Source of the DNA: a virus
Lineage: Duplodnaviria; Heunggongvirae; Uroviricota; Caudoviricetes
Virus record (IMG/VR): IMGVR_UViG_2534681657_000014
Direction: 5' to 3' (one strand)
Length of the DNA stretch: 4,765 nucleotides
The position numbers and the translations under genes were made by a program. The notes below the pieces were generated by a model. The model did no database searches. It saw nothing but the letters and a program-made list of their open reading frames with translations, and was not told where the DNA came from. Shown here one piece after another: positions 1-4,765 of the stretch (the stretch's first letter is position 1; every line of letters starts with the position of its first letter).

Positions 1-75
1 ACCGCTATGCAGCGAACTGCATATTGCCCCGTCAACGTATTACCACTGTCAGCAACAGCGACATCATCCGGATAA

Positions 76-846
76 ACGCAGTGCCCGTGCGCAGCGCGAT
101 ACTGGCTGAAGAAAGAGATACAGCGCGTATACGATGAAAATCACAAGGTATACGGTGTGCGTAAAGTCTGGCGTCAGTTGTTACGGGAAGGTATCAGAGT
201 GGCCAGATGCACTGTGGCACGTCTCATGGCGGTTATGGGACTTGCCGGTGTTCTCCGGGGTAAAAAGGTCCGTACGACCATCAGCCGGAAAGCCGTTGCC
301 GCAGGCGACCGCGTAAACCGTCAGTTCGTGGCAGAACGACCTGACCAGCTGTGGGTGGCTGATTTTACTTACGTCAGCACATGGCGGGGCTTCGTCTATG
401 TGGCGTTCATCATTGATGTGTTTGCCGGATACATCGTGGGGTGGCGGGTCTCATCGTCCATGGAAACGACATTCGTGCTGGATGCACTGGAGCAGGCGTT
501 ATGGGCCCGTCGACCGTCCGGCACGGTCCATCACAGTGATAAAGGTTCTCAGTATGTATCGCTGGCCTACACACAGCGGCTTAAGGAAGCCGGATTACTG
601 GCATCAACAGGAAGTACAGGCGACTCGTATGACAACGCGATGGCGGAGAGCATCAATGGTCTTTACAAAGCGGAGGTAATACACCGTAAGAGCTGGAAAA
701 ACCGTGCAGAAGTGGAACTGGCCACACTCACGTGGGTGGACTGGTATAACAATCGACGATTGCTGGAAAGGCTGGGCCATACTCCTCCGGCAGAAGCAGA
801 AAAAGCTTATTATGCTTCCATCGGAAACGATGATCTGGCAGCCTGA
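76..846 (+). CDS. IS3-family transposase OrfB (DDE/rve integrase core), 5'-partial and apparently frameshifted
   Basis: Frame-1 ORF (ORF track 157..846, GTG start; frame open from 76) reads ...LKKEIQRVYDENHKVYGVRKVWRQLLREGIRVARCTVARLM...DQLWVADFTYV...VHHSDKGSQY...YDNAMAESINGLYKAE..., with candidate DDE residues in ADFTY, HHSDKG and AESING. The expected upstream HTH-like segment PLCSELHIAPSTYYHCQQQRHHPDKRSARAQRD is encoded in frame 2 (nt 2-109) and stops at TGA 110-112, so N-terminal and catalytic parts sit in different frames. Confidence 0.85.
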   Translation, partial: TQCPCAARYWLKKEIQRVYDENHKVYGVRKVWRQLLREGIRVARCTVARLMAVMGLAGVLRGKKVRTTISRKAVAAGDRVNRQFVAERPDQLWVADFTYVSTWRGFVYVAFIIDVFAGYIVGWRVSSSMETTFVLDALEQALWARRPSGTVHHSDKGSQYVSLAYTQRLKEAGLLASTGSTGDSYDNAMAESINGLYKAEVIHRKSWKNRAEVELATLTWVDWYNNRRLLERLGHTPPAEAEKAYYASIGNDDLAA

Positions 847-888
847 GTTCACAGATAAAACACTCTCCAGGAAACCCGGGGCGGTTCA
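847..888 (+). repeat. right terminal inverted repeat region of the IS3-family element
   Basis: Lies between the transposase stop (844-846) and the point where lambda O-homologous sequence resumes (889 onward, ACTTCGGCAGAGG). Ends in ...GGTTCA. The left end is outside the window, so the IR length cannot be confirmed. Confidence 0.5.
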
Positions 889-926
889 ACTTCGGCAGAG
901 GTAACTTTGCCGGACAGGAGCGTAAT

Positions 927-1763
927 GTGGCAGATCTCGATGATGGTTACGCCAGACTATCAAATATGCTGCTTGAGGCTTATTCAGGCGCAGATCTGAC
1001 CAAGCGACAGTTTAAAGTGCTGCTTGCCATTCTGCGTAAAACCTATGGGTGGAATAAACCAATGGACAGAATCACCGATTCTCAACTTAGCGAGATTACA
1101 AAGTTACCTGTCAAACGGTGCAATGAAGCCAAGTTAGAACTCGTCAGAATGAATATTATCAAGCAGCAAGGCGGCATGTTTGGACCAAATAAAAACATCT
1201 CAGAATGGTGTATCCCTCAAAACGAGGGAAAATCCCCTAAAACGAGGGATAAAACATCCCTCAAATTGGGGGATTGCTATCCCTCAAAACAGGGGGACAC
1301 AAAAGACACTATTACAAAAGAAAAAAGAAAAGATTATTCGTCCGAGAATTCTGGCGAATCCTCTGACCAGCCAGAAAACGATCTTTCTGTGGTTAAACCG
1401 GATGCTGCAATTCAGAGCGGCAGTAAGTGGGGAACAGCAGAAGACCTGACCGCCGCAGAGGGGATGTTTGACATGGTGAAGACCATCGCGCCATCAGCCA
1501 GAAAACCGAATTTTGCTGGGTGGGCTAACGATATCCGCCTGATGCGTGAACGTGACGGACGTAACCACCGCGATATGTGTGTGCTTTTCCGCTGGGCCTG
1601 CCAGGACAACTTCTGGTCCGGTAACGTGCTGAGTCCGGCCAAACTCCGCGACAAGTGGACCCAGCTCGAAATCAACCGTAACAAGCAACAGGCTGGCGTG
1701 ACAGCCGGAAAACCAAAACTCGACCTGACAAACACTGACTGGATTTACGGGGTGGATCTATGA
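927..1763 (+). CDS. O: lambda-type replication initiator protein O, N-terminally truncated by the upstream IS insertion
   Basis: The 278-aa translation (VADLDDGYARLSNMLLEAYSGADLTKRQFKVLLAILRKTYGWNKPMDRITDSQLSEITKLPVKRCNEAKLELVRMNIIKQQGG...NTDWIYGVDL) matches lambda O as I recall it from residue ~22 onward. The frame is open back to 834, and 885-926 still encodes FNFGRGNFAGQERN (lambda O residues ~8-21), but there is no ATG. The first usable start is GTG 927, preceded by AGGAG at 916-920. The native start and first ~8 codons are displaced by the IS. Confidence 0.9.
   Translation: MADLDDGYARLSNMLLEAYSGADLTKRQFKVLLAILRKTYGWNKPMDRITDSQLSEITKLPVKRCNEAKLELVRMNIIKQQGGMFGPNKNISEWCIPQNEGKSPKTRDKTSLKLGDCYPSKQGDTKDTITKEKRKDYSSENSGESSDQPENDLSVVKPDAAIQSGSKWGTAEDLTAAEGMFDMVKTIAPSARKPNFAGWANDIRLMRERDGRNHRDMCVLFRWACQDNFWSGNVLSPAKLRDKWTQLEINRNKQQAGVTAGKPKLDLTNTDWIYGVDL
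1213..1297 (+). repeat. ori-lambda iterons (four O-binding repeats, each an internal dyad)
   Basis: Four tandem units inside the O coding sequence: TCCCTCAAAACGAGGGA (1213-1229), TCCCCTAAAACGAGGGA (1233-1249), TCCCTCAAATTGGGGGA (1257-1273), TCCCTCAAAACAGGGGGA (1280-1297). This is the classic ori-lambda iteron arrangement. Confidence 0.88.
1298..1340 (+). other. A/T-rich unwinding segment of the replication origin next to the iterons
   Basis: CACAAAAGACACTATTACAAAAGAAAAAAGAAAAGATTATTCG directly follows iteron 4, as in ori-lambda. Confidence 0.75.
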
Positions 1764-2461
1764 AAAACATCGCCGCACAGATGGTTAACTTTGACCGTGA
1801 GCAGATGCGTCGGATCGCCAACAACATGCCGGAACAGTACGACGAAAAGCCACAGGTACAGCAGGTAGCGCAGATCATCAACGGTGTGTTCAGCCAGTTA
1901 CTGGCAACTTTCCCGGCGAGTCTGGCTAACCGTGACCAGAACGAACTGAACGAAATCCGCCGCCAGTGGGTTCTGGCTTTCCGGGAAAACGGGATCACCA
2001 CAATGGAACAGGTTAACGCAGGAATGCGCGTAGCCCGTCGGCAGAACCGACCATTCCTGCCATCACCCGGGCAGTTTGTTGCATGGTGCCGGGAAGAAGC
2101 ATCCGTTATCGCCGGACTGCCAAACGTCAGCGAGCTGGTTGATATGGTTTACGAGTATTGCCGGAAGCGAGGCCTGTATCCGGATGCGGAGTCTTATCCG
2201 TGGAAATCAAACGCGCACTACTGGCTGGTTACCAACCTGTATCAGAACATGCGGGCCAATGCGCTTACTGATGCGGAATTACGCCGTAAGGCCGCAGATG
2301 AGCTTGTCCATATGACTGCGAGAATTAACCGTGGTGAGGCGATCCCTGAACCAGTAAAACAACTTCCTGTCATGGGCGGTAGACCTCTAAATCGTGCACA
2401 GGCTCTGGCGAAGATCGCAGAAATTAAAGCTAAGTTCGGACTGAAAGGAGCAAGTGTATGA
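1760..2461 (+). CDS. P: lambda-type replication protein P (DnaB helicase loader)
   Basis: The 233-aa ORF (MKNIAAQMVNFDREQMRRIANNMPEQYDEKPQVQQVAQIINGVFSQLL...AEIKAKFGLKGASV) is near-identical to lambda P as recalled. Its ATG overlaps the O stop (ATCTATGA) and its TGA stop overlaps the next ATG (GTATGATGG), the usual lambda coupling. Confidence 0.93.
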   Translation: MKNIAAQMVNFDREQMRRIANNMPEQYDEKPQVQQVAQIINGVFSQLLATFPASLANRDQNELNEIRRQWVLAFRENGITTMEQVNAGMRVARRQNRPFLPSPGQFVAWCREEASVIAGLPNVSELVDMVYEYCRKRGLYPDAESYPWKSNAHYWLVTNLYQNMRANALTDAELRRKAADELVHMTARINRGEAIPEPVKQLPVMGGRPLNRAQALAKIAEIKAKFGLKGASV

Positions 2462-2631
2462 TGGGCAAAGAGGCAATTATTCATTACCTGGGGACGCACA
2501 AGAGCTTCTGTGCGCCGGACGTTGCTGCGACAACAGGTGTGACATTAACCAGCATAAATCAGGCTGCGGCAAAAATGGCGCGGGCAGGAATCCTGGTCAT
2601 TGATGGTAAGGTCTGGCGAACGTTTGTTTAA
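2458..2631 (+). CDS. ren: ren-like ORF, C-terminally truncated (57 codons; lambda Ren is ~96 aa) at a recombination breakpoint
   Basis: Translation MMGKEAIIHYLGTHKSFCAPDVAATTGVTLTSINQAAAKMARAGILVIDGKVWRTFV* follows lambda Ren (MTGKEAIIHYLGTHNSFCAPDVAALTGATVTSINQAAAKMARAGVLVIEGKVWRT...) up to ...KVWRT, then diverges and stops at TAA 2629-2631. Not in the ORF track because it is under 60 codons. Confidence 0.6.
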   Translation: MMGKEAIIHYLGTHKSFCAPDVAATTGVTLTSINQAAAKMARAGILVIDGKVWRTFV

Positions 2632-2777
2632 CGGTTAGCTACTCAGGATGATAGGGCGGGGCAAGTGAGTATGAAGCGGATTTTCAGGAATGCCATCAGA
2701 GTTTGGAAATAAAGTGGGTTTTCTAGTGGCAAGAGACTTGATAATATTTAGTTCTTTGAATCCAAGGAGATAGGGTT

Positions 2778-3272
2778 ATGAGAAAATTTATTTTAGCCTT
2801 TGTTATAAGTGCCTCGTTTACAGCAAATGCTGGTGTAGAGAAGTTAGGGCCGTGGATAACAAAGTCTGAGATAAATAAAATGACTGACCAGACTGACTTT
2901 GTGGCCCTTAATTTATCACCAGATTCATATAACAAAGCAGGTACTGATCGTGCAACTTCACTGGTGTTGCGTTGTAGTGATAACAAAACAGATGCCTATT
3001 TATCATTCAATGATTATATGGGTTCGGACAACCCAAGAATTACAGTGCGGTTAGATGGCGGAAAGCCGGTCAAGAGTGTTTGGGGAGGTGGGGAAGGCGG
3101 TGATTCTGCATTTGCTCCACAACCAATACAATTTATAAAGACCTTGGCTAAGCATAAAAAAGCTATTTTTGGGTTTGAACCTTATGGATCAACTATGCAA
3201 GTAGTTGAGTTTGACTTGTCTGAGATTGATAAGGTTGTGGAAAAAATTTCACAGTCTTGCAATTGGAAATGA
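2778..3272 (+). CDS. hypothetical secreted/periplasmic protein with Sec-type signal peptide; moron-like cargo gene of unknown function
   Basis: 164-aa ORF with RBS AAGGAGA (2764-2770) 7 nt upstream of the ATG. N-terminus MRKFILAFVISASFTANA-G has a basic n-region, hydrophobic core and A-N-A cleavage motif, with no lipobox Cys. Two Cys in the mature part (LRCSD, QSCNWK) and a Gly-rich loop (WGGGEGGD). Markedly AT-rich compared with the flanking O/P genes, and followed by an intrinsic terminator. I do not recognise a homolog. Confidence 0.8.
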   Translation: MRKFILAFVISASFTANAGVEKLGPWITKSEINKMTDQTDFVALNLSPDSYNKAGTDRATSLVLRCSDNKTDAYLSFNDYMGSDNPRITVRLDGGKPVKSVWGGGEGGDSAFAPQPIQFIKTLAKHKKAIFGFEPYGSTMQVVEFDLSEIDKVVEKISQSCNWK

Positions 3273-3288
3273 CAAAAAAATTTCATAT

Positions 3289-3315
3289 GAACCCAGTTTG
3301 CGCTGGGTTTTTTAT
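3289..3315 (+). terminator. intrinsic (Rho-independent) terminator of the secreted-protein gene
   Basis: GAACCCAG-TTTGCG-CTGGGTT followed by TTTTTTATTT: stem CCCAG/CTGGG (3292-3296 / 3303-3307, extendable by A-T pairs), 6-nt loop, T-run 3308-3313, starting 17 nt after the stop codon. Confidence 0.7.
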
Positions 3316-4307
3316 TTCAGTAGCCAATAATGCATTCAAAATCTCTTACTTGAGAAACGGCCTATTTGAGATTTCAGTCGTGGCAGGATGATCAGTTGAT
3401 TCGAGTATTGACGCATTTGCGTTCGGAGCGATTACAGTAGATTGTAAATAATAATGAGAAACACATAGCCACCCCGTGGTATTGAAACCATATAATGTTG
3501 GATTTGAAAACAGATCTTTTCCCATGTATTAATAACTACATCCCCGCGAGTGATTCAAAAAGGAGGGCCCAATTTTGTCCGAGTTTTTGTATTCCCCCGC
3601 ATGCCGCTGCGGAGCACTACATCTGAGTGTCTGACTAGGGGATAAAATTAGACTGGATAGTGAGAAGAAAGTGGCGCGCTAGGCTGTGCCGAGTGCTACC
3701 AGTACACCTTGGGGGTGTGCAGCTTTCGCCGAGACTGTAGTGGGTATCGGTTAATGCACGAAAAACCGAGAGGTCAGACAACCAATTTGCCGTAGGATTG
3801 TTTCCGGTGCGATACCGGTCTACTAACTGAAAGCAATGCGAAAAAGCATAAACTCGGTCCTTCAGTCGCCCTACACACTATTTACTAAGAAGGGCTGAAG
3901 CATGGATACAATTATTACATGGATGGGAGATCGTCTGTTGGGGGGACACAAAAATCCGATCTGCGGCAGATGGCGATCACTGGATTAACTTCCGCGATTT
4001 GTTCAACAATTTTGTACACTGAAAAATTAAAACATGGTGAGCCTATTAACCCAAACGAAGAAGAAAAACTTTATAGGCTTTGGTATGAAGGAAACGCTTG
4101 AAAGAATAAAGCACAATTAAAACCTTTGATTTGCGATAATCAACTTGCCATAATTAAGTAATCGGAGTCTGAACAACTCCGGTGACTTCTGCGCTAAACG
4201 GGGACGTTTATGCGCACATACAATCCAAACTATCTTCTCCTTTCACAGATGCAGAAATGCACCTGCAATTCTTTGCATCTAGCGTTTGACCTCTGCGGAG
4301 GTGAAGC

Positions 4308-4430
4308 GTGAACCTCCCACAAGACGGCATCAAATTACATCGCGGCAACTTCACCGCTATCGGCCAGCAGATCCAGCCTTATCTGGAGGAAGGCAAATGC
4401 TTTGTAAGCGTCAACGGAGCACCGTATTGA
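4308..4430 (+). CDS. short ORF (40 codons) with strong RBS; probably the 5' fragment of a gene interrupted by the IS66-family insertion, with its last 9 codons read from the IS terminus
   Basis: GGAGG (4297-4301) sits 6 nt upstream of GTG 4308. Translation [32 protein letters not shown] then VSVNGAPY*, where the last 9 codons (4404-4430) lie inside the GTAAGCG... terminus of the IS66-type element. No homolog recognised. Confidence 0.3.
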
Positions 4431-4436
4431 CGCTTA
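4404..4436. repeat. IS66-family terminal inverted repeat containing a strong hairpin
   Basis: GTAAGCGTCAACGGAGCACCGTATTGACGCTTA: arms TAAGCGTCAA (4405-4414) and TTGACGCTTA (4427-4436) are perfectly complementary (10 bp), with inner CGG/CCG pairing around an AGCA loop. Followed by TTTATT on the + strand. The transposase stop codon lies within the right arm. Confidence 0.45.
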
Positions 4437-4765
4437 TTTATTGGTGAGTACTACGTTCCATGGCAGGAGTTCGTCAACACGGTTGGAGGGCCATTCCGGC
4501 AGTACGCTCAGAATATGGCGCAGATACGCTTCCGGATCGATACCGTTCAGTCGGCAGGTGCCGATCAGCCCGTACAGCAGTGCTCCACGCTCGCCGCCGT
4601 GATCGCTACCGAAGAACACGTAATTTTTCTTTCCGAGACAGACTGCACGAAGCGCTCTTTCCGCTGTGTTATTGTCCACCTCCGCCAGACCGTCATCACT
4701 GTAATAACAGAGGGCGTCCCACTGATTCAGTACATAGCTGAACGCTTCGCCCAGTCTGGATTTTT
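4434..4765 (-). CDS. IS66-family transposase (TnpC-type), C-terminal part; N-terminus lies beyond the window
   Basis: Minus-strand translation ...KSRLGEAFSYVLNQWDALCYYSDDGLAEVDNNTAERALRAVCLGKKNYVFFGSDHGGERGALLYGLIGTCRLNGIDPEAYLRHILSVLPEWPSNRVDELLPWNVVLTNK* carries the IS66-family signature (DNNxAERALR...LGRKNxLFxGS...GG...LIxTCKLNGIDPxAYL...ELLPWN). The frame stays open to the window edge, so the M at 4679 in the ORF track is an internal GTG, not the true start. Confidence 0.85.
   Translation of the reverse strand, partial: KSRLGEAFSYVLNQWDALCYYSDDGLAEVDNNTAERALRAVCLGKKNYVFFGSDHGGERGALLYGLIGTCRLNGIDPEAYLRHILSVLPEWPSNRVDELLPWNVVLTNK

What the first reader, a model, noticed from the sequence alone, without database searches (positions are those of the whole stretch)
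2778..3315. Self-contained AT-rich cargo gene for a 164-aa signal-peptide protein of unknown function, downstream of the replication module
The gene has its own strong RBS and its own intrinsic terminator, and is much more AT-rich than the flanking lambda-like genes. That is the signature of a moron: an independently expressed accessory gene carried by a prophage. The product has a clean Sec signal peptide with A-N-A cleavage site and no lipobox, two cysteines that could form a disulfide, and a Gly-rich WGGGEGGD loop; I recognise no family. Periplasmic prophage morons often act in superinfection exclusion, receptor masking or host-interaction, so this is the best candidate here for an uncharacterised function.
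Basis: partly seen in the sequence, partly recalled or inferred. Interest (0 to 1): 0.65.

Follow-up and report, generated by a model that had tools for sequence, protein, structure and literature searches.

The report
Prophage moron encoding periplasmic VasI-like protein
This is a real, self-contained cargo gene ("moron") in a decaying lambda-like prophage of E. coli; it encodes a small exported protein that is only remotely related to the type VI secretion accessory protein TagO/VasI, whose name it carries in databases, and what it does is still unknown.

Summary
In detail: a 164-aa ORF (2778-3272) with an AAGGAG ribosome-binding site, a signal peptide ending A-N-A, two cysteines, a hairpin/T-run terminator (3289-3318), and 39% GC against 48-53% in the neighbouring O and P genes.

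The moron reading is supported by comparison:
- Homology to lambda stops at 2702.
- A related phage diverges again at 3350.
- Only 85 of 5,426 complete E. coli genomes carry the gene.
- Orthologues at 54-81% identity sit in a different slot of unrelated siphovirus prophages, between the tail-assembly chaperone and tape-measure genes. This is the slot of the HK97 gp15 exclusion moron.
- All 48 distinct loci keep a downstream terminator. 38 of them keep a TGnTAnnnT promoter-like motif about 40 nt upstream of the start codon.
- dN/dS is about 0.1.

It matches PHROG 1848, is borderline for Pfam VasI (PF11319), and is already named "TagO" by NCBI's PGAP annotation pipeline. It is not a T6SS TagO, though: 14 bits against a 124-bit equivalog cutoff, 18% identity to the E. 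coli T6SS-2 TagO, and never found in a T6SS cluster.

The predicted fold resembles Bartonella IalB. Function is untested. My best guess, at low confidence, is periplasmic protection of the lysogen, most likely superinfection exclusion. This is a new member of a known kind and of moderate interest.

The parts
2703..3350 (+). Extent of the cargo (moron) module
   Evidence: 95.8% homology to lambda O-P-ren ends at 2702, 45 bp before lambda's ren stop codon. Phage IdasGreatGrand is collinear up to 3350 and then carries 1.84 kb that the window lacks. Homology to the upstream leader of the tail-slot orthologues begins about 60 nt before the ATG.
2719..2747 (+). Candidate sigma-70 promoter: weak -35 TTTTCT (2719-2724), 17-nt spacer, extended -10 TGaTAATAT (2739-2747)
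   Evidence: Relaxed hexamer scan. A TGnTAnnnT motif lies 39-46 nt upstream of the ATG in 38 of 48 non-redundant loci, against a background of 2.3% per 31-nt window. It is aligned across contexts. It was not detected by the standard scan. This is a prediction only.
2764..2769 (+). Shine-Dalgarno sequence AAGGAG, 8 nt before the ATG
   Evidence: Read directly from the sequence.
2778..3272 (+). CDS for the 164-aa VasI-domain protein (WP_001224618.1, PHROG 1848), stop codon included
   Evidence: dN/dS is 0.08-0.14.
2778..2831 (+). Signal peptide (residues 1-18, MRKFILAFVISASFTANA), predicted signal peptidase I cleavage after A18
   Evidence: Hydropathy and the -3/-1 rule. The N-terminus is variable in sequence but always hydrophobic in homologues, with AxA-type ends. 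No SignalP run was available.
2832..3269 (+). Mature domain (residues 19-164): beta-sandwich plus two helices, invariant C66 and C161, NKMTD and GFEPYG motifs, Gly-rich loop 103-109
3289..3320 (+). Intrinsic terminator: 9-bp stem with 4-nt loop (3289-3310) plus T-rich tail
   Evidence: A hairpin plus T-run lies within 100 nt downstream of the gene in 48 of 48 non-redundant loci, although the terminator sequences differ.
886..2702 (+). Lambda-like backbone upstream: O (927-1763, N-terminus lost to an IS3-family insertion), P (1760-2461), ren fragment (2458-2631)
   Evidence: PGAP marks ren as 'frameshifted; internal stop'.

Best explanation
SHOWN, or strongly supported by computation:
- Window 2703-3350 is a moron, a compact horizontally mobile transcription unit: promoter-like element, strong RBS, one gene, intrinsic terminator.
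- In E. coli lambdoid prophages it sits between ren and the nin region. In siphovirus prophages of other Enterobacterales it sits in the gap between the tail-assembly chaperone and tape-measure genes.
- It encodes a Sec-exported soluble periplasmic protein of about 16 kDa. The protein has one conserved cysteine pair, probably a disulfide, and a beta-sandwich/two-helix fold of the VasI (DUF3121, PF11319)/IalB type.
- It is a remote relative of the T6SS accessory protein TagO/VasI. It is not an orthologue and is not part of any T6SS.

INFERRED (mechanism):
- The protein is made in the lysogen from its own promoter. During lytic growth it is also made from pR or late read-through.
- It acts in the periplasm as a binding module that protects the lysogen from something crossing its envelope.
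- The most likely activity is superinfection exclusion after adsorption. That would mean interfering with the tail-tip/tape-measure conduit or with a host periplasmic or inner-membrane factor needed for genome entry, as the unrelated HK97 gp15 moron from the same tail slot does.

My confidence is about 0.9 for the identity part and about 0.3 for the exclusion mechanism. The figure given is a blend.
For: Module boundaries.

Rarity:
- 85 of 5,426 E. coli genomes carry the gene, all 98-100% identical.
- The downstream segment is found without the gene (151 against about 83 genomes).
- 322 phage records have the DUF6246 tail chaperone, but only 2 have the gene.
- 110 viral-contig matches, against 3 among 185,579 species-representative genomes.

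Two slots: all 41 copies at >=98% identity are O-P-ren-[gene]-ybcN, and all 41 copies at 54-81% identity are tail chaperone...[gene]...tape measure. Other phage lineages carry distant versions next to a repressor (Brucella BiPBO1) or at the prophage end (P2-like 500465-2).

Module architecture: terminator in 48 of 48 loci and promoter-like motif in 38 of 48. In Klebsiella a terminator also precedes the gene, so a promoter of its own is needed there.

Selection and export: dN/dS about 0.1. Export features and invariant cysteines.

Family and fold.

Precedent: the HK97 gene 15 moron lies between the tail chaperone and tape-measure genes, is expressed from the prophage and blocks genome injection (PMC3594210).

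Fold relatives associate with trans-envelope machines:
- VasI with the T6SS (PMC3166118).
- The MotY N-domain docks on flagellar periplasmic rings.

Other weak pointers:
- The ORF is intact although the surrounding prophage is broken by two IS elements.
- Two distant relatives lie beside restriction-modification or defence-like genes.
Against: - No experiment or expression data bear on function.
- The protein has no PADLOC hit. The PADLOC hits in relatives fall on fused N-terminal domains, not on the VasI domain.
- Sharing a slot with HK97 gp15 is analogy, not homology. That slot also carries arc/ant, KilA-N, Rha and SocA genes.
- The same allele group (78-81% identical) is found with different tape-measure types. 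This argues against a tape-measure-specific partner.
- The standard promoter scan found nothing upstream, and the window's -35 is poor (3 of 6).
- The disulfide is inferred from invariance, not from model geometry.
Confidence: 0.4

Rival explanations
1. T6SS-related accessory. The prophage protein acts on a type VI secretion system. It could substitute for or compete with the host's own TagO/VasI (E. coli T6SS-2 has one), changing killing efficiency. Alternatively it could protect the lysogen's periplasm against incoming T6SS attack, in the manner of an orphan immunity or shield protein.
For: - Pfam VasI match (26.7 bits against a 26.5 cutoff), and 47 of 50 relatives match VasI.
- The PGAP name is TagO.
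- The Cys...Cys-x-Trp signature aligns with the bona fide E. coli T6SS-2 TagO, ECs_0222.
- V. cholerae VasI (VCA0118) is exported. It is dispensable for Hcp/VgrG secretion but needed for full killing (PMC3166118).
Against: - TIGR03360 equivalog score is 14.4 bits against a cutoff of 124. ECs_0222 scores 257.
- Only 18% identity to ECs_0222, pairwise E 0.028, hhalign probability 13%.
- None of the 50 nearest cluster representatives comes near the equivalog cutoff (best E 4e-17).
- None of the 80+ loci examined is in a T6SS cluster.
- VasI's own function is unknown (PMC13584744), so the homology carries no mechanism.
Confidence: 0.18
2. Lysogenic-conversion factor for interaction with an animal host or for envelope fitness, in the manner of IalB, Bor or Lom. 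The periplasmic or envelope-associated protein would alter adhesion, invasion, serum resistance or stress resistance of the lysogen rather than interactions with phages or bacteria.
For: - 3 of 50 relatives also match Pfam IalB.
- IalB is implicated in erythrocyte invasion (PMC8859334).
- Many top E. coli carriers are human ETEC or diarrhoeal isolates.
- Morons such as lambda lom and bor act this way (PMC3594210).
Against: - The window protein itself does not match Pfam IalB, and sequence identity to 3dtd is 9%.
- Carriers also come from frogs, swans, soil, sludge and wastewater, and from Pantoea, Klebsiella and Citrobacter.
- The protein has no membrane anchor and no secretion signal beyond Sec, so surface exposure is not expected.
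- IalB's mechanism is itself unknown.
Confidence: 0.12
3. An ordinary lytic-cycle gene of the phage, for example a tail-assembly, injection or lysis accessory, rather than cargo expressed in lysogens.
For: - In 41 of 82 classified loci it lies inside the tail operon, often only about 60 nt upstream of the tape-measure gene and in the same orientation.
- In the lambdoid context it lies within the pR early operon.
- The standard scan finds no promoter.
Against: - It is present in only 2 of 322 phage records with the same tail chaperone.
- It sits at variable distances from both neighbours, among other cargo genes.
- It has moved between early and late operons.
- It always brings its own terminator, which would be odd for an internal operon gene.
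- An exported periplasmic protein is not expected in cytoplasmic tail assembly.
- It stays intact in a prophage that can no longer replicate.
Confidence: 0.05

Closest known systems
T6SS accessory protein TagO/VasI (V. cholerae VCA0118; E. coli T6SS-2 ECs_0222; Pfam PF11319/DUF3121; NCBIfam TIGR03360)
   Same: - Exported protein with a C-terminal domain of about 145 aa.
- Shares the Pfam VasI domain (marginal hit) and the conserved Cys...Cys-x-Trp signature plus a conserved Trp in the middle.
- Function is unknown in both.
   Different: - 18% identity to ECs_0222.
- 14 bits against the 124-bit equivalog cutoff.
- Shorter: no N-terminal extension of about 60-80 aa.
- Always encoded in prophages, never beside tssH or vasH.
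- Has subfamily-specific NKMTD, GGEGGD and GFEPYG motifs.
HK97 gp15 moron (superinfection exclusion; Cumby et al. 2012, as reviewed in PMC3594210)
   Same: - A single-gene moron with its own promoter and terminator and atypical GC.
- Located between the tail-assembly chaperone and tape-measure genes, which is the slot of all 54-81% identical orthologues.
- An envelope-located product with bacterial homologues outside phages.
   Different: - No sequence or fold relationship.
- gp15 is a small inner-membrane protein of the YebO family. This protein is a soluble periplasmic beta-sandwich.
- Exclusion activity is demonstrated for gp15 and untested here.
- The E. coli copy in this window is in the ren-nin slot, not the tail slot.
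IalB (invasion-associated locus B, Bartonella; PDB 3dtd; Pfam PF06776)
   Same: - Also a small exported protein.
- Three relatives of the window protein match both Pfam VasI and Pfam IalB.
   Different: - 9% identity.
- The window protein has no Pfam IalB hit.
- Foldseek did not recover the match.
- IalB is a chromosomal gene of alpha-proteobacteria linked to erythrocyte invasion.
N-terminal domain of MotY (Vibrio flagellar T ring; PDB 8z5n chain A; the identification of this chain as MotY is from its description and length and is probable, not verified)
   Same: - A periplasmic docking module that contacts ring structures of a trans-envelope machine.
   Different: - 11% identity.
- It is part of a two-domain protein with an OmpA-like C-domain.
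- No link to phages.
PHROG 1848 (phage protein family of unknown function)
   Same: Full-length match, E 2.7e-70, residues 1-164 to profile positions 1-166 of 166. The window protein is simply a member.
   Different: Nothing differs. The family has no assigned function.

Membership tests
T6SS TagO/VasI proper (NCBIfam TIGR03360 equivalog) | Score at or above the curated equivalog cutoff (124.2 bits) | tested here: not met
   14.4 bits, E 0.026. The control E. coli T6SS-2 TagO, ECs_0222, scores 257.4 bits.
T6SS TagO/VasI proper (NCBIfam TIGR03360 equivalog) | Encoded inside a T6SS gene cluster, typically beside tssH/clpV or vasH | tested here: not met
   All loci examined are prophage contexts. 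The Sakai T6SS-2 cluster shows the expected arrangement for a true TagO.
T6SS TagO/VasI proper (NCBIfam TIGR03360 equivalog) | Contributes to T6SS-dependent killing | not testable with these tools
   This needs competition assays. The phenotype of VCA0118 is described in PMC3166118.
VasI domain superfamily (Pfam PF11319 / DUF3121) | Pfam gathering score reached | tested here: met
   26.7 bits against a cutoff of 26.5, E 5.3e-6, residues 56-163 to profile 78-184. This is marginal, but 47 of 50 profile-detected relatives also match.
VasI domain superfamily (Pfam PF11319 / DUF3121) | Conserved Cys pair and Trp signature of the domain; export signal or membrane anchor ahead of it | tested here: met
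   - C66 and C161 are invariant; W26, R65, D93, W102, F112, P135 and W163 are >=90% conserved in 50 diverse relatives.
- The signature aligns with ECs_0222.
- 77 of 150 relatives have an N-terminal hydrophobic segment and 17 have a cytoplasmic N-domain followed by a TM segment.
Moron (Juhala/Hendrix definition, as given in PMC3594210) | Extra DNA that is absent from related phages at the same position | tested here: met
   - Lambda lacks it, and homology breaks at 2702.
- 85 of 5,426 E. coli genomes carry it.
- 2 of 322 phages with the same tail chaperone carry it.
Moron (Juhala/Hendrix definition, as given in PMC3594210) | Base composition different from the flanking genes | tested here: met
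   39.2% GC (GC3 32%) against 48-53% (GC3 52-57%) for O, P and ren.
Moron (Juhala/Hendrix definition, as given in PMC3594210) | Own transcription terminator | tested here: met
   Hairpin 3289-3310 plus T-run. Present in 48 of 48 non-redundant loci. This is a prediction from sequence, not measured termination.
Moron (Juhala/Hendrix definition, as given in PMC3594210) | Own promoter | tested here: inconclusive
   The standard scan is negative. An extended -10-like TGaTAATAT with a weak -35 is present. The motif is conserved in 38 of 48 loci at a fixed distance from the ATG despite saturated synonymous divergence. An upstream terminator in the Klebsiella loci implies that a promoter is needed there.
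Moron (Juhala/Hendrix definition, as given in PMC3594210) | Expressed from the repressed prophage | not testable with these tools
   This needs RNA-seq or 5' RACE on uninduced lysogens.
IalB family (Pfam PF06776) | Pfam match | tested here: not met
   No IalB hit for the window protein at E <= 0.1. There is fold-level similarity only. 3 of 50 relatives hit IalB weakly.
Superinfection-exclusion proteins (functional class) | Blocks infection by other phages when expressed from the prophage | not testable with these tools
   No match to any PADLOC model. The only evidence is the positional analogy with HK97 gp15.

The most novel reading that the evidence does not exclude
Phage-borne VasI-domain proteins (PHROG 1848 and its distant relatives in P2-like, Brucella, Pasteurella and Acinetobacter phages) form a previously unrecognised family of periplasmic protection factors. 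They would bind a needle- or tape-measure-like structure as it crosses the periplasm, blocking phage genome entry, T6SS attack, or both. If so, they would also reveal what the VasI/TagO domain does in T6SS, a function still listed as unknown in 2026: recognising or guiding a trans-envelope conduit.
Probability: 0.15. Interest if true: 0.7.

Novelty: new member of a known kind. Interest (0 to 1): 0.4.

Why it matters
The gene is a clean and easily tested example of prophage cargo. It is a single small exported protein under strong purifying selection, present on at least 1,000 public contigs, and has moved between early and late operons of unrelated phages.

Databases label it "T6SS-associated protein TagO". 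That name suggests a secretion-system role, which the evidence here does not support, and it will mislead T6SS gene counts in E. coli, Klebsiella and other Enterobacterales.

If the protein proves to be an exclusion or protection factor, it would add a soluble periplasmic class to the known envelope-level defences. It would also give the first functional handle on the VasI/IalB fold.

If it has no phenotype, the finding is an ordinary moron of unknown function.

Tried and rejected
- Sequence search of PDB with the single protein and with a 50-sequence profile gave nothing meaningful.
- The AFDB50 fold library was unavailable.
- PADLOC gave no hit for the protein. The hits in relatives (PDC-S55, PDC-M72A, MzaA) fall on fused N-terminal domains, so I rejected them as evidence for defence.
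- Rfam found no RNA element in or near the module.
- The search for related loci with the diverse alignment failed because it had no conserved stretch.
- The profile search of the 5.8-billion-protein set with the diverse alignment returned mostly the same close homologues. I therefore could not survey how the wider superfamily divides between T6SS, phage and other contexts. Only two distant relatives could be placed.
- Literature searches for PF11319, DUF3121, PHROG 1848, TagO with prophage, and IalB with prophage found no study of a phage-borne member.
- I considered and rejected a lipoprotein (no lipobox cysteine), a membrane protein (no hydrophobic segment after residue 18), and coding on the opposite strand (the 87-aa ORF at 2723-2986 has no support, whereas the + strand ORF has dN/dS of 0.1).
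Full report
OBSERVATION

The feature is real and sits at the stated coordinates.
- ORF 2778-3272 (+) encodes 164 aa. AAGGAG lies at 2764-2769, 8 nt before the ATG.
- The N-terminus (MRK / FILAFVISASF / TANA|G) has the n-, h- and c-regions of a signal peptidase I substrate, with A-N-A at residues 16-18. There is no lipobox cysteine and no later hydrophobic segment.
- The protein has two cysteines (C66, C161) and the W102-GGGEGGD-109 loop.
- The only terminator-like site in 2400-3700 is the 9-bp hairpin at 3289-3310 followed by a T-run. It folds at -12.2 kcal/mol, z = -2.35 against shuffles.
- The ORF is 39.2% GC (GC3 32%). O is 48.3%, P is 53.3% and the ren fragment is 50.6%.

WHERE IT SITS

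The window is a decayed lambdoid prophage of E. coli.
- An IS3-family transposase gene (157-846) abuts a lambda-type O gene that has lost its start. P follows (1760-2461), then a 57-aa fragment of ren (2458-2631). An IS66-family fragment (4434-4679, minus strand) cuts ybcN at 4403.
- Homology to phage lambda (95.8%) runs from 886 to 2702 and stops 45 bp before lambda's ren stop codon.
- Phage IdasGreatGrand encodes an identical protein. It is collinear up to 3350 and then has 1.84 kb that the window lacks.
- The unit is therefore bounded at about 2703-3350. It consists of a 75-nt leader, one gene and one terminator.
- In intact prophages integrated next to ybhC the order is cII-O-P-ren(pseudo)-[gene]-about 0.9 kb-ybcN-ninE-ybcO-rusA-Q.
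- Lambda's own first terminator-like hairpin after ren lies at the equivalent place. The module's terminator may therefore play the tR2 role. This is an inference, and the identification of that hairpin as tR2 is from memory.

FAMILY

- The protein is a full-length member of PHROG 1848, function unknown (E 2.7e-70).
- It passes Pfam VasI/PF11319 by a hair (26.7 against 26.5 bits).
- It is WP_001224618.1, named 'type VI secretion system-associated protein TagO' by PGAP. The exact sequence is on at least 1,000 public contigs.
- A profile of 24 close homologues finds 3,817 cluster representatives at E <= 1e-3 among 1.84 billion proteins. The whole mature domain (profile positions about 17-165) usually lies at the C-terminus of proteins of 160-700 aa.
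- 47 of 50 sampled relatives match Pfam VasI and 3 also match IalB.
- C66 and C161 are invariant across these 50 relatives. W26, R65, D93, W102, F112, P135 and W163 are at least 90% conserved.

It is not a T6SS TagO.
- The NCBIfam equivalog model TIGR03360 gives 14.4 bits against a cutoff of 124.
- The genuine TagO of the E. coli Sakai T6SS-2 cluster, ECs_0222, lies next to ClpV/TssH and scores 257 bits.
- The two proteins share 18% identity over 112 residues (pairwise E 0.028; hhalign probability 13%). The Cys...Cys-x-Trp signature does align.
- None of the 50 nearest representatives approaches the equivalog cutoff (best E 4e-17).
- The function of TagO/VasI is itself unknown (2026 review PMC13584744). 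V. cholerae VCA0118 is dispensable for Hcp/VgrG-1 secretion but needed for amoeba killing and full E. coli killing (PMC3166118).

STRUCTURE

- AlphaFold2 on the 24-sequence alignment gives pLDDT 79 and pTM 0.76. Low confidence is confined to the signal peptide and the Gly-rich loop 104-109. The fold is a beta-sandwich of about nine strands with two helices (116-123, 150-160).
- Foldseek against PDB finds nothing significant, and there is no PDB relative by sequence. The fold assignment is therefore moderately supported.
- In the viral structure library the model matches only uncharacterised phage proteins.
- IalB is implicated in erythrocyte invasion by an unknown mechanism. The MotY N-domain docks onto periplasmic rings of the flagellar basal body.

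DISTRIBUTION AND MOBILITY

- The gene is in 85 of 5,426 complete E. coli genomes, all 98-100% identical. The segment just downstream is found full-length in 151 genomes, so the gene varies independently of its neighbours.
- A pattern scan found 110 relatives in IMG/VR viral contigs but only 3 among 185,579 species-representative genomes.
- Classifying 83 loci gave a clean split. All 41 copies at >=98% identity lie in O-P-ren-[gene]-ybcN. [quoted passage not shown] These are from Klebsiella, Pantoea, Citrobacter, Pluralibacter and others.
- In that tail slot the distances to both neighbours vary from about 60 nt to several kb. The slot also holds arc/ant, KilA-N, Rha, HNH and SocA genes.
- Of 322 phage records with this chaperone, only 2 carry the gene.
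- More distant relatives (25-28% identity) sit right after a repressor gene in Brucella phage BiPBO1. They sit at the prophage end, as a 297-aa version following a zinc-ribbon protein, in P2-like phage 500465-2. They also occur in Klebsiella P2-like, Pasteurella and Acinetobacter phages.
- This is the behaviour of cargo, not of a core gene. The tail slot looks like the usual home, and the E. coli ren-nin copy looks like one recent relocation.

THE MODULE TRAVELS AS A UNIT

- All 48 non-redundant loci have a GC-rich hairpin plus T-run within 100 nt after the stop codon, although the terminator sequences differ.
- 38 of 48 have TGnTAnnnT (TGaTAGGAT, TGcTAGGAT; TGaTAATAT in the window) 39-46 nt before the ATG. 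The background is 2.3% per 31-nt window.
- Most of the 10 loci that miss the TGnTAnnnT pattern, and that could be read in the alignment, still have the TAGGAT hexamer.
- In many tail-slot loci a -35-like TTGTCG lies 17 nt upstream and overlaps the T-tail of a terminator that precedes the module. Transcription from upstream would stop there, so the gene needs its own promoter.
- In the window the corresponding elements are TTTTCT (2719-2724, 3 of 6) and TGaTAATAT (2739-2747). The standard scan does not call this a promoter.
- Synonymous sites between these orthologues are saturated (dS > 1.2) while dN/dS is 0.08-0.14. Survival of the upstream motif therefore implies selection on it. Whether it is a promoter is a prediction.

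MECHANISM

Shown by computation: a moron encoding an exported, cysteine-paired periplasmic domain of the VasI/IalB type.

Inferred: it is expressed in lysogens and benefits them.

The most likely activity is superinfection exclusion at a step after adsorption. The reasoning is as follows.
- The orthologues occupy the slot of the founding moron, HK97 gene 15. That gene is expressed from the prophage and blocks genome injection in a tail-dependent way (PMC3594210).
- Other lineages place relatives beside repressors or at prophage ends, where lysogenic-conversion genes usually lie.
- The known fold relatives associate with machines that cross the envelope.
- The ORF survives intact in a dead prophage.

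I give this mechanism about 0.3. It rests on analogy. The protein has no PADLOC hit. The same allele group occurs with different tape-measure types.

Rivals:
- A T6SS-related role (0.18). It is supported only by remote homology to a protein of unknown function.
- An IalB/Bor-like host-interaction role (0.12).
- An ordinary lytic-cycle gene (0.05).

COMPARISON AND NOVELTY

- The architecture is a textbook moron.
- The protein is a member of a catalogued but uncharacterised phage family and a remote member of the VasI domain superfamily.
- I found no paper on a phage-borne member.
- What is new here is modest. The database name 'TagO' over-reaches. The family is phage cargo that shares the HK97 gp15 slot. 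It has an IalB-like predicted fold.
- I rate it a new member of a known kind, with interest 0.4.

LIMITS

- No expression or phenotype data exist.
- No signal-peptide predictor was available.
- The context of the wider superfamily could not be surveyed.

Noticed in passing
window 1-926: An IS3-family transposase orfB (157-846: rve, HTH_21) is preceded by a partial, sub-threshold match to the ALIL frameshift pseudoknot at 1-31. The insertion removed the first ~22 nt of the lambda-type O gene, so this prophage cannot make full-length O.
   Followed up: partly
window 2458-2702: ren is reduced to a 57-aa ORF, against 96 aa in lambda. PGAP marks it 'frameshifted; internal stop' in every E. coli carrier I inspected. 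The cargo junction at 2702 also removed ren's last 45 bp.
   Followed up: partly
window 3352-4300: About 950 bp downstream of the module has almost no coding capacity. The only conserved ORF is 60 aa (3919-4101, PHROG 8527, unknown function). Phage IdasGreatGrand has an extra 1.84 kb inserted exactly at 3350/3352, so this is another recombination hotspot.
   Followed up: partly
window 4308-4765: ybcN (start 4308) is cut at 4403 by an IS66-family element. The element's transposase C-terminal fragment is at 4434-4679 on the minus strand; PGAP names it ISEc47.
   Followed up: partly
L004 4940-5003, L007 7940-8003, L011 7950-8003: Tail-slot orthologues carry an AGGAT...ATCCT inverted repeat that spans the -10-like hexamer and the bases just before the ATG (AGGATttATCCT in Pantoea). 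It could be an operator or a 5' UTR hairpin that occludes a weak RBS. The window copy lacks it and has a strong AAGGAG instead.
   Followed up: no
P0064, P0070, P0109, P0066, P0103, P0148; L100, L101: Distant VasI-domain proteins are fused to other N-terminal domains: zinc ribbon plus TM segment, sigma-factor-like domains (PADLOC PDC-S55, NCBIfam MzaA-like) or ankyrin repeats. The two I could place genomically lie beside type III RM-like, McrB-like AAA and HATPase genes. This suggests the domain is a periplasmic sensor or binding module in signalling or defence-island proteins.
   Followed up: partly
L016 1997-2020 (lambda 40596-40619): Lambda's first terminator-like hairpin after ren (tR2, named from memory) lies where the module's own terminator now sits in this prophage. 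The moron may have replaced tR2 functionally.
   Followed up: no
protein cluster of window:2778-3269: The 90%-identity cluster holding the 164-aa protein also contains many 233-aa 'Replication protein P' sequences and has one as its representative. This is evidently a clustering artefact in the protein collection.
   Followed up: no
BFVD hits D9IC73 (phage RB16), D5JF58 (phage KP15), V9LYR6 (Vibrio phage VH7D): Uncharacterised proteins of lytic T4-like phages and of a Vibrio phage share the predicted fold (Foldseek E 2e-5 to 7e-3). The fold is therefore not confined to temperate phages.
   Followed up: no
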